Part shown: in pieces, positions 9,246 to 60,412 of the stretch
Layout: each line of letters begins with the position of its first letter
Numbering within the stretch: position 1 is the stretch's first letter
Source: Prorocentrum cordatum
Lineage: Eukaryota
Assembly: GCA_963575745.1 (NCBI GenBank)
Contig: CAUYUJ010000281.1
Span: 434,001-498,000, forward strand
DNA length: 64,000 nt
Reading direction: 5' to 3'
Notes under the pieces: generated by a model
Seen by the model: only the letters and a program-made list of their open reading frames with translations
What the model was told of the DNA's origin: nothing
Database searches by the model: none
Position numbers and translations under genes: made by a program

Positions 9246-9313
<68 letters not shown>

Positions 9314-9334
9314 ATCATCATCATCATCACCCTG

Positions 9335-9410
<76 letters not shown>

Positions 9411-9411
9411 G

Positions 9412-9443
<32 letters not shown>

Positions 9444-9590
9444 GCATCATCATCATCATCATTTCATCATCCTCATCCTCATCCTCATCCTCATCATCAC
9501 CCTCATCATCATCATCATCATCACCCTAATCATCATTCTTCATCATCCTCATCCTCATCCTCGTCCTCATCCTCATCCTCATCATCACCC

Positions 9591-9621
<31 letters not shown>

Positions 9622-9812
9622 TATCATCATCATCACAATCACCATCACCATCACCATCACCATCACCATCATCATCATCATCATCATCATCAGCATCATC
9701 ATCCTCATCCTCATCCTCATCCTCATCATCATCATCATCATCATCATCATCACCCTAATCATCGTCATCATCTTCGTCATCCTCATCCTCATCCTCATGC
9801 TCATCCTCATCA
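9241..9812. repeat. (CAT)n / (CATCCT)n microsatellite
   Basis: Directly visible. Confidence 0.95.
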
Positions 9813-15989: not shown

Positions 15990-16870
15990 TAACCCTGCCA
16001 CTAGGGTCCTCGGTGGAGCCCCCTATGAAGGCACGAAACGTGTGAGAGTCTGCCGAGAGGCGGGTACCCATGTAAATCCTGCCAGTGGGGCCCTCGGTGG
16101 AGCCCCCTTATGGGGCCACGAAGCGTGTGAGGGGTACGGCGAGACGAGGCGAGTACCCATGTGAACCCTTCCACTGGGGCCCTCGGTGTAGCCCCCCTAT
16201 GGGGCGACGAAACTTGTGAGGGGTCTGCCAAGATGAGGCGGGTACCCATGTGAACCCTGCCACGGTACGCATGCGAACTGGGGCCTTCGGTGGAGATCCC
16301 TATGGGGCCACGAAGCGTGTGAGGGTTCTGCCAAGATGAGGCGGGTACCCGTGTGAACACTGCCACTGGGGCCCTCGGTGGAGCTCCCCATGGAGCCACG
16401 AAACGTGTGAGGGGTCTGCCGAAACGTGGCAGGTACCCATATGAACCCTGTCACTGGGGCCCTCGGTGGAGCCCCCTATGAGGCACGAAGCGTTCGATCT
16501 GCCGAAATGTGGCACCAATGAAACCCTGCCGCTGGGGCCCTCGTTGGAGCCCCCTATGGGGCTACGAAGCGCGTGAGGGGTCTGCCAAAATGGGGTGGGC
16601 AACGGTGTGAACCCCGCCACTGGGGCCCTCGGTGAAGCCCCCTATGGGTCCACGAAACGTGCGAGGAGTCGGCCGAAATGGGGCGGGTACCCATGTGAAC
16701 CCTGCCACTGGAGGCCTCGGTGATGCACCCGATGGGGCCACGGAACGTGTGAGGGGTCTGCCGAAGTGCAAAAAGTCAAAGCATGAGGCCTCCTGCACTG
16801 CTGGAGCCGTCGCTGGGGCCTTCGGTGGATCTCCTTAGGAAGGCACGAACCGTGTGAGGGGTGTGGCGAA
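15990..16870 (+). repeat. ~88-bp tandem satellite, about 10 copies
   Basis: The core gggccctcggtggagccccctatggggccacgaa.cgtgtgaggggtctgcc recurs at ~16004, 16087, 16176, 16280, 16368, 16456, 16534, 16622, 16710 and 16815. Confidence 0.92.
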
Positions 16871-27847: not shown

Positions 27848-28121
27848 AACACACAAGCGCGCACACGCGCACACACATGCACACTTTTAAATCAGCGGCG
27901 CAGAGGGTGCCCAGGTGCGGGCAGCAGATGGAAGTGGAACACACACACACACACGAACACACACGCACACACACGCACACACACACACACACACGCAAGC
28001 AAACACACACACACAATCACACACGCACACACACACACACACGCACACGCACACAATCACCCACACAGACACACACAAACACACAAACACACAAACACCC
28101 ACACGCGCGCGCACACACACA

Positions 28122-28212
<91 letters not shown>

Positions 28213-28228
28213 CAAAGCACACACAACA

Positions 28229-28267
<39 letters not shown>

Positions 28268-28268
28268 T

Positions 28269-28360
<92 letters not shown>

Positions 28361-28391
28361 CGGACGCACACACACACACACACCACACACA

Positions 28392-28425
<34 letters not shown>
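27775..28425. repeat. (CA)n / (GCAC)n microsatellite
   Basis: Directly visible. Confidence 0.95.
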
Positions 28426-34927: not shown

Positions 34928-35125
34928 CCAGAGATCCGACGTCGCGATTTTTTCAATGCGGGGTCCCCAGAAGTCTCGACCCATTCACCGGGACCGGTTT
35001 TTCATCCTAAGTCGTTTTTTTGACGGTCCTGGGGCCCGGCGAGGGCCCCTAGGGGCCGAAATTTGCGAAATACCTCCGTCCAGATTTTATTCAGTACGTT
35101 GGGGGTCTGGGGAGGGCGGAGCCTA
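34928..35125 (+). mobile_element. Family D copy
   Basis: gagatccgacgtcgcgattttttcaatgcggggtccccagaagtctcgacccattc... shared with five other copies. Confidence 0.8.
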
Positions 35126-43024: not shown

Positions 43025-43124
43025 NNNNNNNNNNNNNNNNNNNNNNNNNNNNNNNNNNNNNNNNNNNNNNNNNNNNNNNNNNNNNNNNNNNNNNNNNNNN
43101 NNNNNNNNNNNNNNNNNNNNNNNN
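43025..43124. other. Assembly gap (100 N)
   Basis: Run of N. Confidence 1.
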
Positions 43125-43967: not shown

Positions 43968-44334
43968 ACTCTCCCCCCCGTGCACCTCCCCCCCCCTCGT
44001 GGCTCGAGGATCCGGGAGGCTCCCCGCGGGCCCGTCCCGAGGGCAACGATCACGAGACAGCTCGCCGCTGGGGCCCCAGCGCCGGCCCAAAGGCCGAGCA
44101 GAACTCGGGCGCAGCCTCGCACGCGTTCGAATGCCGACACTTCGTCCTCGCAGTACTCGTATTCCTCACCGTCCTCCTCCCCATCATGATCGTCGTCGTC
44201 CTCCTGTTCGTCCTCCTCCTCATCCTCCTCTTCTTCCTCGTTTCCCTCCTGCTCCAGCTCCCCCTCGTCCTCGTCAAGGGTTTCGTCCTCGTTTCTCATC
44301 TTCCTCCTCCTGCTTATCCTCATTCTCCTGGCAC

Positions 44335-44520
44335 CTCGGCGGCCGAGAATAAAACCGTCTCCCATCGGTTGCGCCATAGGGTGCGCCCTCGGCGGCAGAT
44401 AATAAAACCGTCTTCTACCGGGTGCGCCATAGGTTGCGCCCTCGGCGGCCGAGGGTAAAACCGTCTCCTCTCGGTTGCGCCATTGGGTGCGCCCTCAGCG
44501 GTCGAGAATAAAACCGTCGC
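44335..44520. repeat. 53-bp tandem repeat, about 3.5 copies
   Basis: aaaaccgtc occurs at 44351, 44404, 44457 and 44510. Confidence 0.9.
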
Positions 44521-44777
44521 GTAACGGGCGCGACCAGTGTGTTCAGTTCAGTTCAGTGCAGAAGCTCACTTCAGTTCAGTTCAGTCAGTTTATCTCGCGT
44601 GAAACAAACTCGGGCTACGCCAGGAAGAACAAACAAAGACGTCCAAACAATGACGAGATCGGTGGTTCAAAGATGGGGTCCTGAGAGATGGGGTCCTGAG
44701 GACAGGAATGGGGCCCAAGGGTGCATCTACATTGCTTGAGGCACAACGTCCTTTGGACCCCATCCCTCGGGACCTCA

Positions 44778-44990
44778 AAGATCCGATGTCGTGATTCTTT
44801 CAAGTCGGGGTCACCAGAAGCCTCGACCCATTCCCCGGGACCGGCTTTGCAGCCTGAGTCGCTTTTGACGGTCCCGAGGCCCGGCGAGGGCCCCTGGGGG
44901 CCGAAACTTGCGAAAACCCCCGCCTTCATTTTTTCAATAATTTGGATCTCTGGGGTAGTCCAGGGCGGTCTCAACAACCCTCCGCCCTCC
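44778..44990 (+). mobile_element. Family D copy
   Basis: Close match to 56346-56560. Confidence 0.8.
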
Positions 44991-45502
44991 CCCTCCTACT
45001 CCTCCTTCTCCTCCTCCTCCTCCTCCTCCTCCTCCTCCTCCTCCTCCTCCCCCTCCTCCTCCTCCTCCTCCTCCTTCTCCTCCTCCTCCTCCTCCCTTAT
45101 CCTTCCTCTCATCCTCCTCCCCTCCTCCCTCCTCCGCCGTTCCTCCTCTCCTTCCTCCTCCGCTCCTTCCCTCCGCACACTGTTCCTCCTCCTCTCTCCG
45201 CCTCCGACCTCCCTCCGCCTCCGCCTCTCCTCATTCCTCTCTCCTCACCCTACCTCCCCCCTTTCCGCTCCTCCTCTTCTCTCCTCCTCCGACCTCCCTC
45301 CGGCCTCCTCACTCCTCCTCCTCCTCCTCCTCTCATTACTTTTCTCCTCATCCTCCTACTCCCTTCTCCTCCTCCGATCATCCCGTCCTCACCTCCGCAT
45401 CATCATCAACACACGCGCTCGACACACCATCCGCCCACACCCCCCCCCTCTCCCCCTCTCTACATCCACCTCCTCTATCACTATGGCGAGCCGAGCCCGA
45501 GC

Positions 45503-45665
45503 CTCTGGCGGTGCGGCACCGGCCCGGGCCGAGGCGCGCCCTCCGCGCGCCTCGAGCCGCCGGCGCACACTCGGGCGCGCGTGCGGGCGGCGGCCGGCGG
45601 CCAGGCAGGGCAGCGGCAGCCGCCGCCGGGGGCGCGCCAGCCGCCGCGCGGGCGGCCATGGCCAT
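45503..45665 (-). CDS. Probable exon 1 of the dehydrogenase gene (Ala/Arg-rich N-terminal presequence, MAMAARAAAG...)
   Basis: ATGGCC start preceded by a ctAG|G candidate trans-splice acceptor; the AG|GC donor in phase 1 matches the phase-1 acceptor at 43769. Confidence 0.6.
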
Positions 45666-45896
45666 GCTCGAGCCTAGCGGCTCCTCCTCCCCCTCCTCCC
45701 CCGCCCACCTCCCTCCTCCTCCTCCTCCTCCTCCCTCCTCCCTCCTCCTCCTCCTCCTCCTCCTCCTCGACGACGACTGGCGCGAAGAGTATCTCCGCGC
45801 CACATGCCGCTTACGCCGCCTCGGCCCCGCACTGAGCAGGGCACGAGGGCGGCGCCTCCGACCGCTCGATGACGAACGGTATCAAAGCCAGACGAG

Positions 45897-48800
45897 TTAG
45901 CCCACCGAGGCAATCGACGCGGAGGAGGCGCCACGCGCAGACGACGTCTCCCCCGCGCGGATCGTTTCAGCGGACAGCAGGCGCTGGCGCAGCAGGTGCC
46001 AGCGCTTGTTCAGGCTGAAGCGTGCAGGATCACGCGACAAATTCTGCAAAACACGAAAGCCATGCGATCCAGGGAGAGGATTCCCCAGACAGGCTTGCTG
46101 GAACTGCTGGGAGACCTTCCTGCCCCCCAGCCCACACACAAGACAGGCGACGCACCACGCCCCGCCTGTGAGCTGGAAAAGATGACAGACGTGCTGGCGA
46201 TCGCCAGCGGCGGCGATGCGCACGCATGCCGAGTCAGCCTGGGCGAGGGCTCGTGGCGTACGGGTGGGAGGAGGAGGGAGGACCTCAAGGGGAGGAGGAA
46301 CCTTCACTCTCTGAGCCCTCGCCTTGACCTGCACATGCAACGAGTCACAGTCACACAAACGTGGCCCAACGCGCGCGCACCATCTGGCATAATGTCGGAG
46401 CACGCGCGCTTTGGACTGCCTGGTAGTACGAAGCTCAGCTGGCACTCTGGCGCGCTCCGTGCTCCACTTGGCCCAATCATCGGCCTCCCCGTTGCCGTCG
46501 CGACAAAACTGAGACACTCTACCCGCTTGCACTGCAGCACGCGTGGTGTGAGCTGGGACCTTGATTAGAGCGAAGGATTGCACTCCACCCCAGTCGTCAA
46601 TCCTGGCCCACACGAGTCTCCAAATTTCAGCCCAGGCGCTGCTGCTGCTACAGCAGTGCCTGCGACCGCGAACAAGCACGCCCTCGAAAACGAAACTCGA
46701 ATCGGTGTAAAAAGTGGCCCCAGGGGTGGCATGCTGGAGACCCCTGAGGAAAGCAGTGAGCTCGGCCGCATCGATGTCTACGAGCGTGCCAGGCAGAACT
46801 CCGACGAGCACAGACCGCACCTTAGCCGAATCGGCCTCGACAGCGACGACAGCCCACCCCGCGGCCTGAGCGTGGGCGGGCAGATCCTGGTCGTGCCAGG
46901 AGCCGTCCAAGAAAATATGCCCATCCATCTCTGTGGGACCGCCGCCGAACCATCTCTCGGGAGGTTTGGTGGAAGCAGGCAGCACAGCAGCAGGCACGAG
47001 CAGCCTCTCAGCAAAGAGGTTGGTGAGAGGGGAGGCGGCGGCAGCGCGCGACAGAGGGCCGAGGTAGGACGGAATATCCTTAGCCTCCATCACCTCCTCC
47101 TGCATTCCGCAAGCCGTGTGCCTGTGCCTGAGCGTGCACGGGTTCTGGCGGCAAGCCAAGCACACAGGCGAATCGGTCATTCCGGTGCTCCACTGTCGAT
47201 GCTGTGGCCACTGGCCGCCTGATACAACACTCTTGAGGTAGCCTTTTTCCGTAGGCAAGAGCTCCTTACCTTGCATGAGCGACACCAAAGGCTGAAACAA
47301 GCATCCGTCTTGCAGCTCTGGCATCTTTTCTGTCTGCGCGACGCGGGACCAGAGCCAACAATCAATAACTCGCACCAGCCATAGCCCTACCGTGCGAGGC
47401 GAGACTTCTTGGACAGAGATGCGTCCAAGCACAGAGTGAGACCATTGGAACCCTTGGACCAGGATCTCAAGGCGGATCGCCGTGGCAGCACAGGCCGAGA
47501 ACGGGCCACGAACGCTGCCCCAGGCGTTGCCACTCTGCTGGATTCGCTCATAGGCTTCAGTGATGCCTTGCTCGAGCAGCTTGGCTGGGAGCCACAAATC
47601 CCAAACGGCGCTGGCGAAGGCAAGCAGCGGGTCCATGTTGAGACGATACACAGGATCACACCGCGGGACCTCCGCAAGCATTAAAAGTAGCGCGATAGAT
47701 CTACCAGCCAAACTGTTGACTTGCACATAAGCTTGCATCGCACGAGCGGTGCGTAGCTGAGTGTTGTTGCTGCCATACACGTTGCCCCCATACTTGAGGG
47801 AGGCCAAGCAAGCAGCCGACACCATATGATGCACACTGCGTTTTTTTAATCACTTTGGCGAAACTGTGCAGCTTCCGCGCCCGAGCAATAGCTGGACGCA
47901 TCCTAGCAGCACGAGTCTCTTTGGCCATAACTCTAGCAAAGGCAAAGTCGATCCCCAAGTTGCGCTCACTGGAGACCCCTTTCAACTTGACAGACTTCAC
48001 CCGCTGCACTATCCGATCTCTCAACCCTTTATCCGACGCGACGACGCGACCCTTCCGACTGTGCACGACGAGACCAATCTTCTTGAGCTCGGTGTGCAGC
48101 AGGGTGGTGGCATTAGAGAGCTCGTGTTCTACATCAGTAGCGCGCCCTAGCTTTTGCAAACCGAAATCATCTACTACTATGCCCAAGTCAACGCGAGGGA
48201 ACGTAGCGCACACTCGATCTACAGGCAGCAAGAGCACTAGCTGCAGCATGACCGTTGCGAAGTGGCATCCTGGCAGCACCGCTTGGTTCGCGGCCAAGGG
48301 CTGCGATACAGCATCGTTGAGGGAGAGAACACGTGGGGACCTGTAGAGCTCCACGAGGAGCTTCAGCTGGCGAGTCGGAAAATTCGTACGCAGCGCCGCA
48401 GAGAGGAGCTCTGCGTGGGAGACGTGCTCGAAAGCCTTCTGCAAATCGAGCAACACCAGGCCAGAGCTGAAGCCTTTGGTGGCGGCCCATTCAGCTCCAG
48501 CTACTTGAATCCAGACTAACTTGTCGCTGCTGCGACCGCTGGTGGACCACCAGTACGGCCGCGGGTTGGCCTCTTGCCAGTCCTTGATCAGGGGACGCCT
48601 GAGCCGTCCCTGAATTCTGGCTAACATGTGGATTAGCGCTATTGGCCTCAGGCCACCTTCCCGTTTGGCCAGGAAAACGACCTTGGTCCAGAACCTGGGC
48701 CAAGAGGCAGCTCGCTCGATCTCTTCGAGCAGGTCCAGCAGCAACTCTAGGCCGGCATCGGAGAGGGCCAGAAGTTGTCGCGGCGTGACCTGATCAAAGC

Positions 48801-50350
48801 CACAGCCTGAAGCACGTGGGAAGGTGCCCAGACATTCTTTCAACTCTTGGAGACTGGGGCGAGGAAACTCAGGCCCTAGATCGCTTGGCCAAGGGATGCT
48901 GGACTCCTCCGCCCCCACCCTCCACCAGTGCGACCACTCCTCCTCCAATAAATCAACTTCCTGCTGCATGGTTGCAGGCTGCGCAGGCACACCAGCTCCG
49001 CTGGCGAAGGTGAAAGAGCTGGCGTGCCACGGCACAGGCGGCCTGGAGGTGGCGAAGAGCGCCGCTCCTCCGTTGATGCTATGACGCTGGACCCAGGACC
49101 GCCAGCCGTCGCGCTTGCTTTTTTTCAGCTTGCCTGAACGCTTGTTCAGCTTTGGTAGTGGCCACCACAGAGAGCGCAGAGACTAAATCGTACGGCAACA
49201 CCTGAGCAAGCGAGAGCAACGCCTTCCAAGGCGCAGCAACATGCGCCTCTACCTTACTGTCTTGACGTTGAAGCAGAGACGCAAGACGTAGATCTGGCAC
49301 TCGACGACAAGGTGGTTGCCAGGAGCCCATGGAGTGGAAGCACTGCGCCACCAGCCTCCACCAGAGAGCCTCAGGACTCAGCCTCGGGTATGGCAGCTTG
49401 CCAGGGCTGGGCGCCTTGCGCGTGACGAAGGAAGGCCCCTCAGCGCGCCCAGCATACTCAGGGTGCTCGTCCAGGCTGACGTCGTAGATGTCGGCCCAGT
49501 CTTTCTCGGCTGCTCGAATCCACTCTTGCCACATGCCATCTACATTGCCAGCAGCCGTCATGGAGACCTGCGCGTCTGCCCAGTACTGATCGGGGTCGTG
49601 ACGGCGACATCCAATCGGCAACTCAACTGGGAACCGCTTTGGCACCCGAGCCACTCGGTAGCACAACTGCTGCGCCACCTCGGGCTGAAGAGTGAGGAGC
49701 ACAGGGCTGTGAGGCTTGGTGCCAACTCCATGCACAAGCTCTGCCGTGGCCCCGTACTGCAGGGTGGCAGAGACTATAAAGAAATCCAGCACGCGCCCTT
49801 TCGACTGAGCCGAATTGCTGCAGGTCGCCACTGACGGAGCAACGATGGCGCCATCGATGGCCTCAACCCACCCAGAGCCATTAAGCTGATCAGGAGTCAT
49901 CTGAAAGTCACCATTGATAATGTACGGCATGTTGGCGATCTTGATGGCCTCGCCAACTGCATTGAGGACGGCCCAGTTCCTCGGGCCCAACTGCTCACCG
50001 TCGTGCAGGTAGACGTTGACCCACAGGAACCCGCACGGCGTGAGACCTGAAGCGTGAAGCGCCGAAGCCCTCCCGTTCGCGATGGTGACGGGAAGATGCT
50101 CCACCTCCGCCAGCCCCTGGTGTCCAGGGACTGCTTGAAGAAGACCGCCACTGCTGCCTCCTCTCCCTGTGGCCAGAGCTGGCTCCATTCTGGCGCGCCA
50201 GCCCGTGCCCTTCAACTTGGCCTCCCAAGACGCACACTGCCATTGCTCGACGTGGTGTTCTTGAACGGCTAAAGCATCGCAACTTTGCGCAACGGAGTGC
50301 CCAAGAAGAGCCTCCAGGCCGAGAAGGCCCGTGACGATGCTGGTAATCAT
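45897..50350 (-). CDS. LINE ORF2 in three frame segments, with frameshifts near 49122 and 47844
   Basis: APE endonuclease: AVQEHH, VNVYL, INGDFQ, VLDFF, PHSPV. RT: GLRPIAL, LLDLQKAFEHV, VLPGC, IVVDDF, RNLGIDF. RNase H: IFLDGS, AELTA, YTDS, KVPAH, GNGEADDWAK. Cys/His clusters CLAC...HRHTAC and CVACLVC. Confidence 0.92.
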
Positions 50351-50366
50351 CCTCCACCTCTGTTTG

Positions 50367-51374
50367 TCAAACCTGCTGGGCACCGCCTGCTGCCGAGGCC
50401 GCGTCGTCAGCCCGCAGCTTCTTGGAGGCCTGCACACGCACCTGGCTGAAGATGTCGGCGACCAGGCTGTGCTTGACGCCGTGCTTCTCGCCAAGCTCGG
50501 CAACCATGGCACTGCCCTCGTCCTCGTTCTCGGCGAGGTACTGGAGCAGGTCCTGATGAGCAAGCCTGGCACGCTCCTGCGCTGCGAGGGCGTCGGCACT
50601 GGGAGGCTGTGGCCCAGCAGGCGGCATGTCAGCGTCAGCCCCGCCAGCAGGAGGAGCAGAACCAGCTGGAGGAGCAGCGGGAGCCGCGGGGGCTGGCAGC
50701 GCCTCTCGAAGCGCGGGGACGACACCGGCGAGCGTGGCCGCAACCTGCTTGAGCGGCTCGGACTGCTCGAGCGCCGCCACGAGCTTCTGGAGCTGGCCGA
50801 GCGGGTCGGCGGGCGCCATGGTGGCGTAGGCGGCGGCGGCACGCGCAGCTGCAACCTTCTCAGCCTGCACAGCTGCGGCCAACTCCGCCTTGAGCTTGAC
50901 CGCATTAGCCACTGCTCTCCCCACTGCCTCCTGCGCCCTGTCATAGGCGCGCTGGGCCTTGACCTTTTTGTCCGAGGCCGTGTCTTGCTCGAGCCTTGCA
51001 GCCTTGGCGCTGGCTTTGGGCTCGTCGCTCTGGAGAGCGCGCTGCACCTTGATCTTGGCAACGAGCTTCGCAGGCCAGCCCTCGGTGGCGACCTCGAAGT
51101 CCTCCTGGGACATGGACGCGTAGACTTTGATCTGCTCCGTCGAGAGTTGCAACATGCGAGGCTGCGCTGCAGCCTTGGGATTGGGAGGCCCTTGCATCCA
51201 GGCGCCGAGAAGACGCTCGCCTGGCGCTTGACCTTGCCCCGCTTGACCACGTGCTGCTTGCCCAGGGAGACGCCCAGGCTTCCAGCCGCACCTGTAGCAA
51301 CTCGTTCTTGAAGCATAGTTGCGTTGAAACCCACACCTCTTGTTACAGCACGCCCAGCGAGAGAAATCTCCCAT
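50367..51374 (-). CDS. LINE ORF1, 335 aa, with an N-terminal RanBP2-type zinc finger and Ala-rich coiled-coil-like region
   Basis: MGDFSRWACCNKRCGFQRNYASRTSCYRCG approximates W-x-C-x(2-4)-C-x(3-4)-N-x6-C-x2-C; first ATG after the spliced leader; stop lies 17 nt before the ORF2 ATG. Confidence 0.85.
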   Translation of the reverse strand: MGDFSRWACCNKRCGFQRNYASRTSCYRCGWKPGRLPGQAARGQAGQGQAPGERLLGAWMQGPPNPKAAAQPRMLQLSTEQIKVYASMSQEDFEVATEGWPAKLVAKIKVQRALQSDEPKASAKAARLEQDTASDKKVKAQRAYDRAQEAVGRAVANAVKLKAELAAAVQAEKVAAARAAAAYATMAPADPLGQLQKLVAALEQSEPLKQVAATLAGVVPALREALPAPAAPAAPPAGSAPPAGGADADMPPAGPQPPSADALAAQERARLAHQDLLQYLAENEDEGSAMVAELGEKHGVKHSLVADIFSQVRVQASKKLRADDAASAAGGAQQV

Positions 51375-51487
51375 GTGCTCAGCGTAGTTGGAAGGCAAGG
51401 GCGTGCGGGCTGAAACCGCAGTTCTGTACCGATGTAAGTGAGGAAACTGACGGGGTCGCGAACCCCAGGCCAAAGAAAACTCTTGTC

Positions 51488-51530
51488 CTTGAGCGAAACG
51501 CCTACGGACTTGAGCCAAAATGGCTACGGA
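51488..51530 (-). other. Genomic copy of the dinoflagellate spliced leader (51509-51530, perfect) plus an adjacent degenerate copy (51488-51508)
   Basis: Reverse complement reads TCCGTAGCCATTTTGGCTCAAG followed by TCCGTAGGCGTTTCGCTCAAG. Confidence 0.95.
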
Positions 51531-51671
51531 CCTCCTCACCTCCTCCTCCTCCTCCTCCTCCTCCTCCTCCTCCTCCTCCTCCTCCTCCTCCTCCTCCTCC
51601 CTCCTCCTCTCCTCCTCCTCCTCCTCCTCCTCCTCCTCCTCCTCCTCCTCCTCCTCCTCCTCCTCCTCCTC
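51531..51671. repeat. (CCT)n tract separating the two divergent spliced-leader-capped inserts
   Basis: Directly visible. Confidence 0.95.
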
Positions 51672-51738
51672 ACCATAGCCATTTTGGCTCAAGCCATGTT
51701 GGCTCAAGCCATTTTGGCTCAAGTTGCCACCGCTCAAG
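51672..51738 (+). other. Spliced leader plus three stacked 15-nt relics
   Basis: ACCATAGCCATTTTGGCTCAAG (51672-51693), CCATGTTGGCTCAAG, CCATTTTGGCTCAAG and degenerate TTGCCACCGCTCAAG. Confidence 0.93.
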
Positions 51739-51802
51739 CCAGCTGGGCAGGAGCAGCCTGCCCACAGTTTTCGCGCTACATCCACACGCCGCAGTTGCCG
51801 CC

Positions 51803-52735
51803 ATGTCTTCCAGGACGCCCTGGGTTCGTAAAGGAGGAGTAGGAGCTCCAGTTGTTTCGCATTCAAAGTTGCTTTGCCCGCGTGGCAGGCCAGACTGTTG
51901 GATCTGGCCAAATAGAATTGCTTCTCAGCCGTTATGTAAGTGCGGCCTTCCTTGGCATGGGAAGAGTTCCCAGCCACTTCCGCCACCTCCGCCACCACCG
52001 TCAGCAGCGAAGTCTGGTCGCACAGAAAAGATCAAGGCTGAGGTAGTAGTTGGCAGGGAGAAGTTTCAGTCCAATCACAAGCACACTGTTCAGGTAGAAG
52101 CCGACAGTGTGAAGGAGCAGCCACCATCGCCGCCTCTTGTGGCAGTGAAGCCCAATCCCAAAGATAAGGCCGCCAGTCAGGTAGAAGCCAACAGAGAACA
52201 GGGCCAGGATTTCAAAGTCAGGCATCAGTTCAAGCTTTTGATCTCGGATGTCTTCCAGCAGTACGAACCGCCGATGCTGGATCAGCTGGGCCATTTCTTG
52301 GACAAGTACAAAGGGCAAGAACAGCTTCTTTATTTGGCAGTATGCGAGAAATTCAATGCGGAGCCTAAGGTAAAGGTTCAGATCACCAAGAAGGAAGACA
52401 AGCTTCCAGTTTTGGACAGCGATAGCGTGTCCGACTCACCTTCTGCCAGTATAAAACATGTCGACAGTCCTCGTTCGACTTCTCCAGAGTACGCTAGTAA
52501 GCGTGCAAAGGTTGGGCACAGCGATGCCGCCCCTTCCAGTGGTTCTGCCCCGTCCAATTCAAGACTTCTGGAGCTAAAGTGTGGTCTCCAGGATATCAAG
52601 AGCAAGCACCTCCAGCAGAAGCTGGAGACACTTCAGGAAGAGCTCAAACGTGCTAAGAATCAAACCGCAGCTTCATGCAGTGCGCCTGTTCCAAGGAGGA
52701 GCAGATCCAGCTCAGACTCCACTTCTTCAAAGTAA
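51803..52735 (+). CDS. Intronless 310-aa hypothetical protein in a retroposed unit (N-terminal Cys4 cluster, central helical motif, C-terminal coiled-coil-like segment)
   Basis: GCCGCCATG start 65 nt after the relics; non-repetitive open frame; CPRGRPDCWIWPNR...CKCGLPW, FQQYEPPMLDQLGHFLDKYKGQEQLLYLAVCEKF and LQQKLETLQEELKRAK. Confidence 0.8.
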   Translation: MSSRTPWVRKGGVGAPVVSHSKLLCPRGRPDCWIWPNRIASQPLCKCGLPWHGKSSQPLPPPPPPPSAAKSGRTEKIKAEVVVGREKFQSNHKHTVQVEADSVKEQPPSPPLVAVKPNPKDKAASQVEANREQGQDFKVRHQFKLLISDVFQQYEPPMLDQLGHFLDKYKGQEQLLYLAVCEKFNAEPKVKVQITKKEDKLPVLDSDSVSDSPSASIKHVDSPRSTSPEYASKRAKVGHSDAAPSSGSAPSNSRLLELKCGLQDIKSKHLQQKLETLQEELKRAKNQTAASCSAPVPRRSRSSSDSTSSK

Positions 52736-53904
52736 TTGGAGCAATTATGTTGGTAGTATCCAACTTTCTTTTCAGCGGCAGAATTTGTATTGCATCTTGG
52801 GCAAAATGGCAACTTGAGTATTGGCTTAGTGTGCAACATTCTCGGCTACAGGTTTTGGTAGAATCCTTTGTGTTGGTCATTTGCGTTTGGGTAGGACAGT
52901 TGTCAGCTACCCAGGGTTCTTTAATGTTCACGTCTTGTTTCCTTGGCCAGATTGGCAGTACTGTGAAGCAGGTAGCTTACTTGCAGTTTCTTCTTCATGC
53001 GCTAGTTGGGCAGTTGTATCCAGCCCAGTTTATTTTTACTCTTCAGGGGTCCAGGAAAGTCTGGCGAAGTAATCCCCTAGTAATCTCTCTACCCTTTGGG
53101 GGATGGTAGGTCTCGCTCTGCTAGGGGACTCCCATTAGTATGTGGGAAGAAAGTTTACCCCAGTGCATTGCAGTCTTGATCTCCTTCCCCTTCTTTGGTC
53201 CTTCTTTCTTCCCCCCTCCCTCCTTCCTCCCTCCAGACAGGTCAAGGAATTGGCAGCCAGGTCACAGGCGAAAGCAAGTGGCCTTCCCTGGCGGGTCTTG
53301 CCATGGTCTCACCATGCCCGAAAGTCCGAACCTGCAAGTTGGCGTTCAGGGATTGCTCTTGTCTGGTGTGGGGGATATTTGGTGGGTGGTATAGGATTAT
53401 CCGCCCCGTTCTGGGGAAGTTCTGCATTGATTCCGTTCTGGCCTGGGAACGGCCCATTAGAAGGTGGGCAGCGTTTAACCCGGACGAGTTTTGTTTCATG
53501 CTGTCCTGCTCCTCCTCTCCTCCTCCTGGGGTAAGGTTCTTGGCGCCGACTCGGAACTGGCAACGCCCCAGGCTTGGACTGGGGGTCAGTTGCTGTCCGC
53601 GGAACGCGCATGAGCTTTAGTTCAGCCCCGAAGCGAATGTCAATGTCCTCCTCCTCCTCCTCCTCCTCCCCCTCCTCCTCCTCCTCCTCCTCCTCCTCCT
53701 CCTCCTCCTCCTCCTCCTCCACTGCCGGGGCTCCGGGAGGGCGGTGATCTCGAGCCTAGCGGCTGCCCAGACCTTCCTCGAGGGCTACAAAAGAGCGCCA
53801 GGACTTCGACGGCTGAAATCCAATCGAGGCCTGAAGCAGCCCAGATAGGTCTAGAGGTCTGGAGGGCGTTTTTGTCAGCACTCTGGAAGGTCAAAGAAAT
53901 GACG

Positions 53905-54075
53905 GACCCAGAGATCGGATGCTCCAAAAAGATGGGAACGGGCGGTGTTTTTGAATGATTTGTCGGTCTCCCGGGGCCCTCGCCGGGCCTCGGGGCCGTC
54001 AAGAAGCAGCTCAGGGCGAAAAGCTGGCCCCAAGGAAGTGGTCCGAACCTCTGGGGCCCACGCCTCGAAAAAAGC
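53905..54075 (-). mobile_element. Family D, inverted degenerate copy
   Basis: ggggccctcgccgggcctcggggccgtcaagaagc.gctcagg is the reverse complement of the family D core. Confidence 0.65.
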
Positions 54076-54949
54076 GGAGCAGCTGGATGTTCAGGGGCCA
54101 GGACGAGGGAGGAGCAGGACGAGGAGAGGGCAGAGGAGAGATGGGGGCAGTCCCCCCTTGCACACCTGCCCCTCCTCCCCTTCCTTCTGCCCCTGCACCC
54201 CTACCTTTCCCCCCCTCCTCTCCGATCTTCTGCGTCGTCCTCCCTGCCCCCCGCCTCGCCGTTCCCTCTTCCACAACCTCCTCCTCCTCCTCCTCCTCCT
54301 CCTCCTCCTCCTCCTCCTCCTCCTCCTCCTCCTCCCCCAAACCGCCTGATACCTCCTAGGATCCCAACAGATTCTCGCACAACCTCCTGGATTGTCCGAC
54401 CACCTCCTCCCCTCTTCCTGGCGCAGCGAAGCAAGCCTGTCGCGCCGCACCATGTAGAAGCCCCCAGATCTGATGAAATTCACGCCCAACCTTTTTTTCC
54501 AGCACGGGTTTCTACACCTCTATGTCTATGAATATACGTAAGCATGGGTCCGCTACGGACAAGCTGATTCGGGACTATTCGGGATCATCAAGAAGGCGGG
54601 GCTGATTGAGAACGTGCACTGAACCACCGACCCAATGAGACACATCAAAATAATCGATATGTAACCTTGTGTGAAGTGGCCAGTCGTGCTCACACGTCCA
54701 CACATCCTCCACATCCATCATCCTCCCTACCTGCCTTCCTGGTTGTTCTCCTCCACCTGTCTTTCCCTGCCTCCTCCTTTATCGGTCCTTCCTCCCAACA
54801 TGGGGGGCTCTTACGACATTCGAGCGTTTCGAAAGACATGCGAACACAATAGACATCAACGATGGAAACATACAAGCACCTCACACGATAAGCAATCCCA
54901 TGCAGCAACACATGTGCAAACAAATGCTTGCCAGCGTGAACCCAACCAG

Positions 54950-55340
54950 TGGAGTGTGGCACTGTGGCTGTGTAGGCTATGTAGTGTGATCTGCGAAGCG
55001 ACGTCTAAGTGGGATAAGTATATGGCGCACTATACGTGGTGCCTCTCTACATGTGGTGTGAGCTGTACATGGCCGATACGTTACGTGGTGCCTCCAATGT
55101 GGTACGACTAGGGGTCTGAGCTATTCAGTGCGGTGTAGGTGGTGCAATACATGTGGTGCGATGTGTGCGGCGCACGCTGTGCAGAGCAATCCCAATTCCG
55201 CAATACATAGTGTGCAATGTTAGTGCTGTGAGCTATAGGGTGTAATACATTGTGGCCTAAGCTATGTGGAGTTTATGTGGCATGGGTTATGTGCTGTTCA
55301 CTTCGTGCTGGGTATCGATGTCATTTGAGCTATGCAGCGC
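54950..55340. repeat. Degenerate TG-rich short-period repeat (tgtggtgtgagcta-like)
   Basis: Recurrent gtggtg / gagcta / aatacat motifs. Confidence 0.5.
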
Positions 55341-56109
55341 TGTAGATCACGCGCGGGGCCACCACGAAGAGCCCGCGGGCGGCAACGTGGCGAAAACTTG
55401 GCGGACCCACCCAGCGGCAGCGGACGGGGCGCCCACGAGGCGCCCGCGGGCGGCAACGTGGCGAAACCTCGGCGGACCAATCCAAAGTCTTGGGAAGGAC
55501 ACATAACAACTCTTCGTGCAAGCTCTGCTTGGGGAATCGAAGAGCCACTGGAGGCCGCAGAACACCTTCGACATCCTGTGCAAGCTGCCGAAGCATCCTC
55601 CCCCCCATCCAAGAGAGGAGGATAAGGTAGCAGGAGGAGGGAGGAGGATAATGAGGAGGAGGGGGAGGAGGACGACCAGATACCGCCAAGAGGGGTCACC
55701 ACTCCAGTACCACCGCTGAGGGGTTGCTATGCTAAGGGGGTCTCCTGAGTGTGCAGGCTTGCGGGGCATCGCGGGCACGACAGGATCATGCGCACACGTT
55801 GCTCAAGCGGCCTCAGGAGGCTCCTGGCCACAGGCCCTCCAGGAGATCCCCGCGGACGCCTCCGGAGGTCTCTGTAAGGAGGCGCCTGATATAGGGCCAG
55901 AAGGAAGGCAAAGGAGCTAGACAGGCAAAGAACAGCCTGGATCCCCGCACGTCAACTCTCGATCGGAGTCTCGACCACCCCTTCCTTCGGTGCTTCCGAG
56001 AGGGGGCCCAGAGGGATGGGGCCCCATTGACGAGAACCTCAAAGAGTGCAGTCTCAACTCGCGATCCACTTCCTGTCTCCAGGGCCCCATCCCTCAGGGC
56101 CGCATCCTT

Positions 56110-56345: not shown

Positions 56346-56560
56346 CCCAGAGATCCGACGTCGTGCTCTTTTCAATACGGGGTCCCCGGAAATCTCGACC
56401 CATTCCCCAGGACCGGTTTTTCATCCTGAGTCGTTTTTGGACGGTCCCGAGGCCCGGCGAGGGCCCCTGGTGACCAAAATTTGCAAAAACCTCATTTATT
56501 TTTCAATACTTTGGATCTCTGGGGTATTCCAGGGCGGTCTCAACACCCCTCCGCCCTCCC
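56346..56560 (+). mobile_element. Family D copy
   Basis: Close match to the copies at 34928 and 44778. Confidence 0.8.
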
Positions 56561-57024
56561 CCTCCCCCTCCTCCTCCTCCCCCGCCCCCTCTCCCCTCCC
56601 CTCCTCCTCCCCGCTCCTCCTCCTCCTCCTCCTCCTCCTCCTCCTCCTCCTCCTCCCCTCTCCTCCTCCTCCCCTCCTCCTCTCCTCCACAATTACTCAA
56701 TATGAAAATACTCTCCCTCTTCCCCTGATGGCGTCCGGGTGATGGCCGCGCACCCTCCACGTACTGTTTTTTACACACAGGATTCCCGGGAAATCCCCGG
56801 AAACGACTCTCGCTGCGGCGCCGGCGTCATTTTTCCCCAAAATGCTGCTCTCGTTGAGGCGCCAGCCTCATTTCTGCTCCCGAATCGTTCCGAATCGTGC
56901 TCCCGCTGCAGCGTGGGCCTCATTTTCGGATCGGTGTTTGGCCTCCGTCGTTCAGGATGGCGTTCTCGCCCCAGCGCGGGCCTTTTTCTCGCGCGCCCAT
57001 CCGCCCGCCACCAACGCGCCGCAC

Positions 57025-59479: not shown

Positions 59480-60412
59480 TCCTTCCTATCCTCCTGCTCC
59501 TCCTCCTGCTGCTCCTCCTCCTCCTCTTCCCTTCCTTCCCTCCTTCCTGCCTGCCTGCCTTCCTTCCCTCCTCATCCTCTTCCTGTCACTGCCGCTGTCG
59601 GCATCGGAGCTCGAATCGAATGCTGTCGTCGCCTCCTTCAACTCCTCCTCCTCCTCCTCCTCCTCTTTCGTGTCCTTCTCATCCTCCTCCTGCTCCTCCT
59701 CCTCCTCCTCTTCCTCCCTGCTCCTCCTCCCACCTCCTCCTTCTCCTTCTGATTCATCAGCACCTCCTCCTCCTCCTCCGCCTCCTCCCCTTGTTCCTCC
59801 TCCTCCTCCTCCTCCTCCTCCTCCTCCTCTTGCTCCTCCTCCTCCTCCTCCTCTTGCTCCTCCTCCTCTTCCTCCATTCTTCCTCTTCTTTATCATCATC
59901 GTTAACACCATCCGCGTCATCAGCATCAGCAGCATCATCATTAGCATTATCATCATCAGCATCAGCATAATCATCGTCAGCATCGTCAGCACCACCACCA
60001 TCACAATCAACAACATCATTATCATCATGATCATCAGCATCATCACAGCAGCACCAACATCAGCACCAGCATCATCACCAGCATGCTCATCAACATCATC
60101 AGCAGCATCAGCATCAGCATCATCAGCATCATCGCCATCATCACCAGCATCTGCATCAGCATCATCACCATCATAAACATCATCATCATCAACATCACCA
60201 TCCGCATCAGCAGCATCATCACCATCATCAACATCATAATCAGCATCAGCATCAGCATCATCATCACCATCATCAGCATCGTCATCATCATCATCATCAT
60301 CATCATTATCATCATCATCATCATCGTCGTCGTCGTCATCATCATCAGCATCATCATCAGCAGCATCAGCATCAGCATCAGCATCAGCATCATCATCATC
60401 ATTATCATCATG
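59480..60412. repeat. Compound (CCT)n followed by (CAT/CAG)n microsatellite
   Basis: Directly visible. Confidence 0.92.

What the first reader, a model, noticed from the sequence alone, without database searches (positions are those of the whole stretch)
45769..51530. A near-complete LINE whose 5' end is a perfect dinoflagellate spliced leader
Seen: the element begins, to the base, with TCCGTAGCCATTTTGGCTCAAG directly after a (GAG)n tract, followed by ORF1 and APE-RT-RNase H. Known: dinoflagellates trans-splice this leader onto mRNAs, and leader relics mark retroposed genes. Inference: the retrotransposon RNA itself was trans-spliced and then copied in full. LINEs normally keep an internal promoter in their 5' UTR. 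This one may instead be cut out of host read-through transcripts by trans-splicing, using the AG within its integrated leader as the next acceptor. That would be a self-renewing, promoter-independent cycle.
Basis: partly seen in the sequence, partly recalled or inferred. Interest (0 to 1): 0.88.

Follow-up and report, generated by a model that had tools for sequence, protein, structure and literature searches.

The report
Spliced-leader-capped full-length dinoflagellate LINE
A full-length jumping gene (LINE) in a dinoflagellate genome starts exactly with the short leader that these algae splice onto their messenger RNAs, followed by an older worn copy of that leader, so it was copied back into DNA from processed mRNA at least twice.

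Summary
A perfect 22-nt DinoSL (51530..51509) follows a (GGA)n tract. Behind it come a full-length degenerate second leader (51508..51488), a 156-nt 5'UTR in all, an intact ORF1 (335 aa) and an ORF2 with APE, RT and RNase H.

The two ORF2 frame breaks sit in T7 runs. All three run-X1 contigs covering them are one T shorter, which gives one ORF2 of about 1483 aa, colinear with 1545/1548-aa homologues.

The element belongs to a multi-copy family: 362 contig pieces at 85-100% identity in run X1. One short-read contig bridges leader, relic, 5'UTR and ORF1 start.

Best reading: a copy reverse-transcribed from a mature trans-spliced LINE mRNA, in a lineage recycled at least twice. Promoter independence is untested; no RNA data could be obtained.

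A related LINE family from metagenome contigs begins with the last 10 nt of the leader.

This extends the known "mRNA recycling" of dinoflagellates to the retrotransposon itself. That is expected in principle, but three full-text searches found no explicit description.

The parts
51531..51671 (.). (GGA)n on the minus strand, (CCT)n on the plus strand: microsatellite forming the 5' flank of the LINE and, on the other strand, the 5' flank of the neighbouring SL-tagged unit
   Evidence: TRF: period 3, 47.3 copies, 94% matches; sequence read
51509..51530 (-). Perfect 22-nt dinoflagellate spliced leader at the exact 5' end of the element
   Evidence: 0 mismatches and 0 of 100 shuffles with any match; sequence read
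51488..51508 (-). Second, full-length but degenerate leader (relic): 21 nt, 3 substitutions and 1 deletion against the leader
   Evidence: Read; TRF period 22, 2.0 copies, 82% matches
51375..51487 (-). Rest of the 5'UTR. The whole 5'UTR, 51530..51375, is 156 nt.
   Evidence: X1 contig record 8 covers 51217-51527 with 1 mismatch.
50367..51374 (-). ORF1: 335 aa plus stop, intact. It has an N-terminal Cys4 zinc-finger-like motif (WACCNKRCGF...CYRCG) and an Ala-rich middle part.
   Evidence: Translation. Homologues P0166 and P0167 (34-46% identity) are aligned to it; P0166 starts at the same MGDFSRWAC. Pfam zf-RanBP is not detected at E<=1, so the zinc-finger label is by eye.
45897..50350 (-). ORF2 (APE-RT-Cys/His motif-RNase H-C-terminal Cys motif). 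It reads in three frames in the window and becomes one ORF of about 1483 aa if each of two T7 runs is one base shorter.
   Evidence: Frames; homopolymers. X1 contigs lack one T at 49119 (2 of 2 covering contigs) and at 47841 (1 of 1). Colinear with the 1545/1548-aa proteins P0004 and P0005.
49646..50350 (-). APE-type endonuclease domain (ORF2 residues about 1-235). Conserved E, D, D and H are present. The first catalytic Asn is Ile, and GDFN reads GDFQ in this copy.
   Evidence: AF2 model and Foldseek hits to L1 ORF2p/L1 EN, APE1, ExoIII and TRAS1 EN. Family profile against PDB: ExoIII 6e-4, L1 EN 8.6e-3. Alignment.
48037..48666 (-). Reverse transcriptase core (VVVDDF active-site motif)
   Evidence: Pfam RVT_1 E 1e-6. 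Family profile against PDB: R2 4.2e-6, LINE-1 ORF2p 6.2e-4. 3286 representative proteins at E<=1e-3.
46467..46916 (-). RNase H domain (D-E-D-D kept in the alignment)
   Evidence: Pfam RNase_H E 9.4e-6, above the cut-off. Profile against PDB RNase H 2.1e-6. Alignment.
45769..45896 (-). 3'UTR (128 nt), ending ...GTCGTCGTC without an A-run
45681..45768 (.). (GAG)n on the minus strand, (CTC)n on the plus strand: microsatellite at the 3' flank. It is either the element's tail or the other half of a microsatellite target; undecided.
   Evidence: TRF period 3, 28 copies, 85% matches
51673..52735 (+). Head-to-head neighbour. A near-complete leader (CCATAGCCATTTTGGCTCAAG) is followed by truncated relics (51694-51708, 51709-51723 and a weaker one), then a 310-aa ORF at 51803-52732. 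Pieces of X1 contigs also lay on this part.

Best explanation
This is a full-length (5,762 bp) and probably young copy of a multi-copy dinoflagellate non-LTR retrotransposon. Its layout is ORF1, then ORF2 with APE endonuclease, RT and RNase H.

The copy was made by reverse transcription of a mature LINE mRNA that carried the 22-nt trans-spliced leader, so the leader was written into DNA at the exact 5' end.

The degenerate full-length leader right behind it is the leader of an earlier round. The lineage has therefore gone at least twice through this sequence: integrate, be transcribed from outside the element, receive a new leader by trans-splicing at or near the 5' edge, be reverse-transcribed.

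Shown: the anatomy, the two leaders, family membership, multi-copy status, and the junction in an independent contig.

Inferred:
- In this lineage the mRNA 5' end is set by trans-splicing and not by an internal promoter's start site.
- The relic-forming round used an acceptor at the 5' edge of the old leader.
- Later rounds may use the AG that ends the integrated leader (CTCAAG|TCCG...). That would replace the old leader exactly and add no further relic.

Not shown: that the integrated leader has any function in the next round.
For: - Perfect leader at 51530..51509, with chance expectation 0 in 100 shuffles.
- A full-length second leader directly behind it.
- Complete LINE anatomy behind them.
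- Run X1 (DNA): 362 contig pieces lie on 45300-52300, split 71/97/115/79 over the identity bands >=99, 95-99, 90-95 and <90%.
- X1 record 8 (314 nt, 1 mismatch) spans 51217-51527. That covers the ORF1 start, the 5'UTR, the relic and the leader down to 3 nt from its first base.
- Another X1 contig joins 51502 (leader plus relic start) to 51375 (just before the ORF1 ATG). Its shorter side is only 26 letters, so this is weak.
- Contigs of X1 and of X2, a different study, match the leader plus the first 13-19 nt of the relic and then continue with other sequence. In one of them, seen in both runs, the continuation completes another degenerate 22-nt leader-like unit (all).
- Homologous full-length ORF2s (P0004, P0005) and ORF1s (P0166, P0167) exist. 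P0004's 90% cluster holds proteins labelled Prorocentrum cordatum / Polarella glacialis.
- Four metagenome copies of a related LINE family (L004, L005, L008, L009; RT 31-33% identical) become alignable to each other exactly at AGGTTGGCTCAA(G/A). That contains the last 10 nt of the leader (10/10 in two copies, 9/10 in two). Their upstream flanks are unrelated.
- Song et al. 2017 (PMC5585692, passages read) report the GO term 'RNA-dependent DNA replication' enriched among leader-relict genes of Symbiodinium.
Against: - No RNA evidence: no RNA run was available.
- No second full genomic copy of this family could be fetched, so the statement 'every full-length copy starts with the leader' is untested.
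- X1 may be the sample the window was assembled from, so its contigs are not fully independent. The leader/(GGA)n junction itself was masked as a repeat.
- The upstream flank of this copy is a 140-nt purine tract with no pyrimidine tract, a poor-looking acceptor context. This copy may be dead on arrival.
- This copy has Ile for the first catalytic Asn of the APE and GDFQ for GDFN. Read as assembled, it also has two frame breaks.
- 0 of 37 related metagenome loci carry a recognisable full leader (<=3 mismatches) or the 15-nt core (<=1 mismatch). The related family carries only the last 10 nt, which a simple 'copied from mature mRNA' model does not predict.
- An internal promoter in the 113 nt between the relic and the ATG cannot be excluded.
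Confidence: 0.72

Rival explanations
1. The LINE has no promoter, is cut out of host read-through transcripts, and the AG inside its integrated leader (TCCGTAG|CC) is the acceptor of the next round, giving a self-renewing cycle.
For: The leader and a relic sit at the 5' end. The internal AG is the acceptor that the classic truncated relics imply, and such relics occur 150 bp away in the neighbouring unit. The recycling model is described in passages of PMC7245778 and PMC12014239.
Against: The LINE's own relic is full length and starts at TCCGTAG, so the internal AG was not used in the round that made it. There is no truncated relic (CCATTTTGGCTCAAG, <=2 mismatches) in the element other than the leader itself. 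There are no RNA data. The upstream flank is purine-rich.
Confidence: 0.08
2. Passive tag with master copies. The leader is only a by-product. The family is amplified from a few master copies driven by a conventional or neighbouring promoter. Their transcripts are trans-spliced at an AG just upstream of TCCGTAGG. The integrated leaders of daughter copies never function.
For: This is compatible with every DNA observation here. This copy has a poor acceptor context and altered APE residues. It also explains why only one relic is seen despite many copies.
Against: The relic is itself a former leader, so at least one daughter copy became a source. Contigs with the leader plus a differently diverged full-length relic in X1 and X2 suggest more than one source lineage, but their link to LINE bodies is not shown.
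Confidence: 0.3
3. The second leader arose after integration by slippage duplication of the 22-nt leader. Only one round of leader capture then occurred.
For: The two units are directly adjacent and in register (TRF period 22).
Against: All 4 differences lie in the downstream unit and none in the upstream one, which has a chance of about 1 in 16 for copies of equal age. Other contigs in two runs also show a leader followed by a degenerate full-length unit.
Confidence: 0.08
4. Coincidence or artefact. Either a LINE landed right behind the leader relics of an older retrogene, or the junction is an assembly chimera.
For: Leader relics of another unit lie 150 bp away. The window has homopolymer-length discrepancies against short-read contigs.
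Against: X1 record 8 bridges leader, relic, 5'UTR and ORF1 with 1 mismatch. The only N gap is at 43025-43124. ORF1 homologue P0166 starts at the same ATG, so the element is not 5'-truncated.
Confidence: 0.04
5. A spliced-leader-gene-specific LINE of the SLACS/CZAR/CRE/NeSL kind, sitting inside an SL RNA gene.
For: Leader sequence is present at the element's border.
Against: The leader is complete and lies on the element side. The upstream flank is (GGA)n, not an SL RNA gene, and no leader half follows the 3' end. The endonuclease is APE-type and N-terminal. That the SL-gene-specific LINEs carry a restriction-like endonuclease is recalled, not tested. There is no Rfam match in 45000-53500.
Confidence: 0.01

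Closest known systems
DinoSL-tagged retrogenes / 'mRNA recycling' in dinoflagellates. Slamovits and Keeling 2008 is recalled. The model was read in passages of PMC7245778, PMC12014239 and PMC5585692.
   Same: There is a DNA-encoded leader at the 5' end of a retroposed unit. A relic leader in tandem marks repeated rounds. Insertion is presumably by LINE machinery.
   Different: Here the retroposed unit is the autonomous retrotransposon itself. The relic is full length instead of truncated at the internal AG. No A-run is seen at the 3' end, which abuts (GAG)n. The papers read treat RT genes and leader relicts separately. The one exception is a GO enrichment note in Song 2017.
APE-type LINEs with RNase H (I, Tad1, LOA, Ingi and plant L1 lineages; clade features recalled)
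   Same: ORF1 plus ORF2 with N-terminal APE, RT, a Cys/His motif and RNase H. The elements are multi-copy.
   Different: The RT is too diverged for a clade call here. A single-sequence search of the PDB gave only non-significant R2 hits (E 0.5). No reference clade sequences were available, so no phylogeny was made. Relatives are many (3286 representative clusters). The only organism names seen, in 1 of the 10 clusters looked up, are two dinoflagellate labels plus one 72-aa member labelled Pyramimonas.
R2 and L1Tc: LINEs whose 5' end is cut out of a co-transcript by an HDV-like ribozyme (recalled). L1Tc Pr77 internal promoter giving unspliced transcripts (abstracts of PMC1874656 and PMC8190864 in the listing).
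   Same: The idea is shared: a LINE can do without its own transcription start by processing a longer transcript.
   Different: No ribozyme or any Rfam family was found in 45000-53500. Processing here would be by the host's trans-splicing. In trypanosomes, L1Tc avoids the leader; this element carries it.
SLACS/CZAR/CRE (trypanosomatids) and NeSL-1 (C. elegans): SL-gene-specific LINEs (recalled)
   Same: A LINE is physically associated with spliced-leader sequence.
   Different: Those elements insert into SL RNA genes and are flanked by the two halves of the leader. This one carries a whole leader as its own first 22 nt, in a microsatellite context, and has an APE-type endonuclease.

Membership tests
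Non-LTR retrotransposon (LINE), APE-type | Reverse transcriptase of the non-LTR type | tested here: met
   Pfam RVT_1 E 1e-6, 29.0 bits, just under the 29.6 cut-off. The family profile hits R2 (4.2e-6) and LINE-1 ORF2p (6.2e-4) in the PDB.
Non-LTR retrotransposon (LINE), APE-type | N-terminal apurinic/apyrimidinic-like endonuclease | tested here: met
   The AF2 model of the window's own residues matches LINE-1 ORF2p (E 1.1e-10), L1 EN (TMt 0.72-0.74), TRAS1 EN, APE1 and ExoIII. Pfam gives no hit on the window piece and only weak hits on the homologues. Two catalytic Asn positions are substituted in this copy.
Non-LTR retrotransposon (LINE), APE-type | No long terminal repeats | tested here: met
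   The repeat finder on 44000-55500 gives no long direct repeat bracketing the element, only microsatellite families.
Non-LTR retrotransposon (LINE), APE-type | 3' tail (poly-A or simple repeat) and target-site duplication | tested here: inconclusive
   Both flanks are (GAG)n on the element's strand. Tail, target and duplication cannot be told apart. About 9% of the window is CCT/GGA repeat (my sum of the rows), so chance flanking is not negligible.
Non-LTR retrotransposon (LINE), APE-type | Dispersed multi-copy family | tested here: met
   362 contig pieces at 85-100% identity in X1 and 87 in X2. There is no second copy inside the window.
DinoSL-tagged retrocopy (mRNA recycling) | DNA-encoded leader at the 5' end of the unit | tested here: met
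   22/22 at 51530..51509.
DinoSL-tagged retrocopy (mRNA recycling) | Relic leader truncated at the internal AG (CCATTTTGGCTCAAG) behind the leader | tested here: not met
   The relic is full length, TCCGTAGGCGTTTCGCTCAAG. The truncated form occurs only in the neighbouring plus-strand unit.
DinoSL-tagged retrocopy (mRNA recycling) | Transcripts of the copy receive a fresh leader | not testable with these tools
   No RNA run was listed for this stretch.
SL-gene-specific LINEs (SLACS/CRE/NeSL) | Insertion inside an SL RNA gene, with leader halves on both flanks | tested here: not met
   The flanks are microsatellite and the leader is whole and internal to the element.
Ribozyme-processed LINEs (R2, L1Tc) | HDV-like ribozyme at the 5' end | tested here: not met
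   0 Rfam matches at E<=1 in 45000-53500 on both strands.

The most novel reading that the evidence does not exclude
A LINE lineage that has handed the making of its mRNA 5' end to the host's trans-splicing.

Each integrated copy carries a portable acceptor as its first 22 nt, namely the AG that ends the leader. Any read-through transcript can then be trimmed back to exactly leader + body, round after round, without adding relics and without an internal promoter.

The same element, inserting at (CCT/GGA)n repeats, would be the long-sought reverse transcriptase source of dinoflagellate retrogenes such as its head-to-head neighbour.
Probability: 0.25. Interest if true: 0.8.

Novelty: new variant of a known kind. 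Interest (0 to 1): 0.52.

Why it matters
Dinoflagellate genomes are full of leader-tagged retrogenes. The papers read here say the reverse transcriptase behind them is unknown (PMC5585692) or propose Ty1/copia (PMC3942190).

This element is a full-length APE-RT-RNase H LINE. Its ORF2 is possibly intact, since the two breaks are homopolymer-length differences. It bears the same tag, and a relic of an earlier round.

It shows that the retrotransposon goes through the same recycling as the genes. It also offers a concrete candidate for the retrogene machinery.

It further raises a testable question in transposon biology: can host trans-splicing replace the internal promoter that LINEs normally need?

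If only the passive reading holds, this is an expected consequence of universal trans-splicing, but still a useful marker of full-length, recently active LINE copies.

Tried and rejected
- Other copies in the window: none by blastn.
- Viral contigs with ORF1 and with the RT piece: no relative.
- Metagenome contigs with ORF1: 258 pattern matches, none confirmed.
- A 24-sequence alignment was too diverged for the locus finder. A 6-sequence alignment gave 37 loci. None carries a full leader.
- Exact leader 21-mer in viral contigs: 119 stretches. They have median GC 20% and no homologue of this LINE at E<=1e-2.
- Protein search for short fragments carrying the leader/5'UTR-encoded peptide in frame with ORF1: 8 candidates, none significant.
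- RNA: no RNA holder was listed for 50900-51560.
- In one search, run X3 laid nothing. X4 laid only on low-complexity and leader parts. The stretches 45675-45782 and 51528-51683 were skipped as repeats, so the leader/(GGA)n junction and the 3' junction are not covered.
- Single-sequence PDB searches of the APE and RT pieces: nothing significant.
- Pfam on 143 long ORFs of the window: only this element's RT and RNase H, plus low-complexity hits.
- Rfam: nothing.
- The plus-strand neighbour's protein is not detectably related to ORF1 (E 0.17).
- A 40-nt inverted repeat bracketing the two units is part of a dispersed repeat, with a 17-mer from it present 5 times in the window. It was rejected as a structural feature of the element.
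- Earlier notes of this scan: none by place, words or sequence.
- An RT clade phylogeny was not attempted, because no reference clade sequences were available from any tool.


Full report
OBSERVATION.

The feature lies on the minus strand. The 21-nt core of the dinoflagellate spliced leader matches 51529..51509 without mismatch. With the T at 51530, the full 22-nt leader TCCGTAGCCATTTTGGCTCAAG is present. None of 100 dinucleotide shuffles of the window gave any match at up to 3 mismatches.

On the minus strand the leader is preceded by ...GGAGGTGAGGAGG. That is the end of a 141-bp (GGA)n array at 51531-51671 (47 units, 94% matches).

The leader is followed at once by a second, full-length but degenerate leader, TCCGTAGGCGTTTCGCTCAAG (51508..51488). 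It has 3 substitutions and 1 deletion. TRF reports period 22, 2.0 copies, 82% matches.

ANATOMY.

- The 5'UTR is 156 nt (51530..51375).
- ORF1 runs 51374..50367 (335 aa, intact). It starts with a Cys4 zinc-finger-like motif and has an Ala-rich middle. Pfam does not call a zinc finger at E<=1, so that label is by eye.
- After a 16-nt spacer, ORF2 starts at 50350 and stops at 45899-45897.

In the window ORF2 reads in three frames. Both frame changes lie in T7 homopolymers, at 49119-49125 and 47841-47847. In the contigs of run X1, every contig covering these places lacks one T: 2 of 2 at 49119 and 1 of 1 at 47841. One base fewer at each place fuses the three frames into one ORF of about 1483 aa. 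The breaks are therefore either homopolymer errors of the assembly or private to this copy. The covering contigs differ from the window elsewhere too, so they may be other copies.

The three pieces are colinear with two full-length homologues of 1545 and 1548 aa, P0004 and P0005.

Domains:
- RT: Pfam RVT_1 E 1e-6, 29.0 bits against a cut-off of 29.6.
- RNase H: Pfam E 9.4e-6, above the cut-off.
- A profile of 13 family members hits PDB RNase H (2.1e-6), R2 (4.2e-6), LINE-1 ORF2p (6.2e-4), exonuclease III (6e-4) and the L1 endonuclease (8.6e-3) in the expected order along the protein.
- An AlphaFold2 model of the window's own N-terminal 423 residues has block pLDDT of 83-94 over most of the first 220. 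It matches human LINE-1 ORF2p (E 1.1e-10), L1 EN (1vyb, TMt 0.74), TRAS1 EN, APE1 and ExoIII.

In this copy the first catalytic Asn of the APE is Ile, and GDFN reads GDFQ. E, D, D and H, the RT VDD motif and the RNase H D-E-D-D are kept.

The 3'UTR is 128 nt and ends ...GTCGTCGTC without an A-run. It abuts (GAG)n. No long terminal repeats bracket the element.

IS IT A FAMILY, AND IS THE JUNCTION REAL?

No genome is held for the window, and the window has no second copy.

One DNA run, X1, holds 84% of the sampled words of 50900-51560. Laying its contigs on 45300-52300 gave 362 pieces in the identity bands 71 (>=99%), 97 (95-99%), 115 (90-95%) and 79 (<90%). A run of another study, X2 (a metagenome), gave 87 pieces, mostly below 95%. 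The element is therefore one copy of a diverged multi-copy family.

Evidence on the junction, all:
- X1 record 8 (314 nt, 1 mismatch) covers 51217-51527. That is the ORF1 start, the 5'UTR, the relic and the leader to within 3 nt of its first base. The junction between leader, relic and LINE body is thus not an artefact peculiar to the window's assembly. X1 may, however, be the window's own source sample.
- A further X1 contig joins 51502 to 51375. It links the leader plus relic start to the base before the ORF1 ATG, skipping 126 nt. Its shorter side is only 26 letters, so this is weak.
- Contigs of X1 (three) and X2 (one) match the leader and the first 13-19 nt of the relic, then continue with other sequence. 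In the variant seen in both runs, the continuation completes another degenerate 22-nt leader-like unit. A leader followed by a full-length worn leader therefore recurs at other loci and in a second study. Whether those loci are LINE copies is not shown.
- The leader/(GGA)n junction and the 3' junction were masked as repeats and are unverified.

RELATIVES.

The RT piece has 3286 representative relatives at E<=1e-3 and 172 at E<=1e-30. Of the 10 clusters looked up, only the closest full-length one carried organism names: proteins labelled Prorocentrum cordatum / Polarella glacialis and one 72-aa member labelled Pyramimonas. ORF1 has homologues of 336 and 330 aa; the 336-aa one starts at the same MGDFSRWAC, so the window's copy is not 5'-truncated.

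A scan of metagenome contigs with a 6-sequence RT alignment returned 37 loci.
- Against my reading: 0 of 37 carry the leader 21-mer at <=3 mismatches or its 15-nt core at <=1 mismatch.
- For it: four contigs of one related family (L004, L005, L008, L009; RT 31-33% identical to the window's) contain the element's 5' end. They become alignable to each other exactly at AGGTTGGCTCAA(G/A). The upstream flanks cannot be aligned. TTGGCTCAAG is the last 10 nt of the leader, 10/10 in two copies and 9/10 in two.
- L011 has GGTTTGGGCTCAAG about 220 nt before its first long ORF, at a change from AT-rich to GC-rich sequence. Its boundary is not established.
- Of the 12 closest loci examined (L001-L012), the other seven lack the motif. 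They are short, or their ORF runs off the contig start.

A second LINE family of this superfamily thus carries leader-derived sequence at its very 5' end, but only the last 10 nt. I cannot explain why all copies stop at the same base with AGG in front.

MECHANISM.

Shown: a perfect leader at the first base of a full-length LINE, an older full-length leader behind it, and multi-copy status.

Established knowledge, from passages read in PMC7245778 and PMC12014239: dinoflagellate nuclear mRNAs receive this leader by trans-splicing, and leader-bearing mRNAs that are reverse-transcribed and re-integrated leave DNA-encoded relics.

Inference:
- The copy was made from a mature trans-spliced LINE mRNA copied to its 5' end.
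- The relic records an earlier round. At least one integrated daughter copy was therefore transcribed from upstream, received a new leader and retrotransposed again.

The form of the relic matters. The classic relic is truncated because the AG at leader positions 6-7 serves as acceptor. That form is seen in the head-to-head neighbour: CCATAGCCATTTTGGCTCAAG, then CCATGTTGGCTCAAG, then CCATTTTGGCTCAAG. There it follows a (CCT)47 pyrimidine tract. The LINE's relic is full length, so in that round the acceptor lay immediately 5' of the old leader.

A variant fits better but is only inferred. If the AG that ends the integrated leader (CTCAAG|TCCG) is the acceptor, each round replaces the old leader exactly. 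The first unit then stays perfect while the never-refreshed relic decays, and no further relics pile up.

The main rival is a master-copy model in which integrated leaders never function. The data here cannot separate the two.

This particular copy looks a poor source. It has a purine tract upstream and altered APE residues.

KNOWN RELATIVES OF THE IDEA.

- It is not an SL-gene-specific LINE (SLACS/CRE/NeSL, recalled). The flanks are microsatellite, the leader is whole, and the endonuclease is APE-type.
- It has no HDV-like ribozyme or any Rfam match, unlike R2 and L1Tc (recalled).
- L1Tc's Pr77 promoter gives unspliced transcripts (abstracts in the listing). That is the opposite solution in another trans-splicing lineage.

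NOVELTY.

Three full-text searches were made: dinoflagellate / spliced leader / retrotransposon / LINE, 39 papers; DinoSL / transposable element, 12 papers; non-LTR / spliced leader / trans-spliced / retrotransposon, 16 papers. Passages were read in eight papers: PMC12014239, PMC3229502, PMC7245778, PMC5585692, PMC3942190, PMC11453091, PMC8045281 and PMC10666404.

None gave an explicit description of a LINE capped by the leader. The nearest is Song et al. 2017, who note 'RNA-dependent DNA replication' enriched among leader-relict genes and say the reverse transcriptase source is unknown. Supplements were not read.

Since nuclear mRNAs in general are trans-spliced in these organisms (passages), a leader on a LINE copy is expected in principle. 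I rate this a new variant of a known kind, of moderate interest.

FLANKS.

Both flanks of the LINE are (GAG)n on its own strand. Both flanks of the neighbour are (CCT)n/(TCC)n on its strand. About 5.9 kb of the 64-kb window (9%) is CCT/GGA repeat, by my sum of the rows. Some of these arrays belong to a dispersed repeat. Microsatellite targeting or a templated (GAG)n tail is therefore possible but not shown.

Noticed in passing
window 51673-53645 (+): A head-to-head neighbour starts 143 bp from the LINE's leader, across the same microsatellite. It has a near-complete leader (one mismatch), then two clear 15-nt truncated relics and a weaker third. A 310-aa ORF (51803-52732) follows, with no Pfam family and no detectable similarity to the LINE's ORF1. 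GC is lower (47-51%). Many X1 contig pieces lay on it. It is followed by (TCC)25 at 53646-53720. It looks like a classic recycled retrogene or a non-autonomous retroposon.
   Followed up: partly
L004:100-112, L005:307-319, L008:78-90, L009:143-155; L011:279-292: A related LINE family from metagenome contigs begins, exactly where its copies become alignable, with AGGTTGGCTCAA(G/A), which holds the last 10 nt of the DinoSL. Upstream flanks are unrelated. Three of the copies (L004, L005, L009), and L006, share a 3' end ...GTTGAGCTGAAYGTCTG...; in L004, L005 and L006 a short A-run follows. It is unexplained why only 10 nt of the leader are present and why AGG precedes them.
   Followed up: partly
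L038 onward (119 IMG/VR loci), e.g. L061:6001-6121: 119 stretches of the viral-contig collection hold an exact 21-nt DinoSL. Most lie on contigs binned as giant-virus MAGs. Median GC of the fetched loci is 20%. In L061 the leader recurs three times at 50-nt spacing ahead of a more GC-rich stretch. None encodes a relative of this LINE. These are either mis-binned AT-rich protist DNA or viral capture of leader-tagged cDNAs.
   Followed up: no
window 49119-49125 and 47841-47847: Two T7 homopolymers are one base longer in the window than in all three X1 short-read contigs that cover them. Each causes an apparent frameshift in ORF2. This may be a homopolymer-length error of the assembly.
   Followed up: partly
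window, whole: About 30 CCT/GGA microsatellite arrays make up roughly 9% of the 64 kb. There are also (TCATCA)n arrays (9246-9812, 59917-60411), an 88-nt tandem repeat (15991-16765), a 53-nt repeat (44334-44518) and (ACAC/ACACGCACACAC)n (27939-28425). Apart from the LINE, none of 143 long ORFs has a convincing Pfam domain.
   Followed up: no
window 44776-45135 and 56348-56688; 17-mer at 35033, 44878, 53973(-), 56451, 57797: A dispersed repeat (84% identity over 362 nt) runs into a (CCT)n array, so some CCT arrays may be the tails of another repeat family. It explains the 40-nt inverted repeat 44865-44904 / 53963-54002 that brackets the LINE and its neighbour.
   Followed up: partly
window 43025-43124: A run of 100 N (scaffold gap) lies 2.6 kb from the element's 3' end. 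It does not touch the element.
   Followed up: yes
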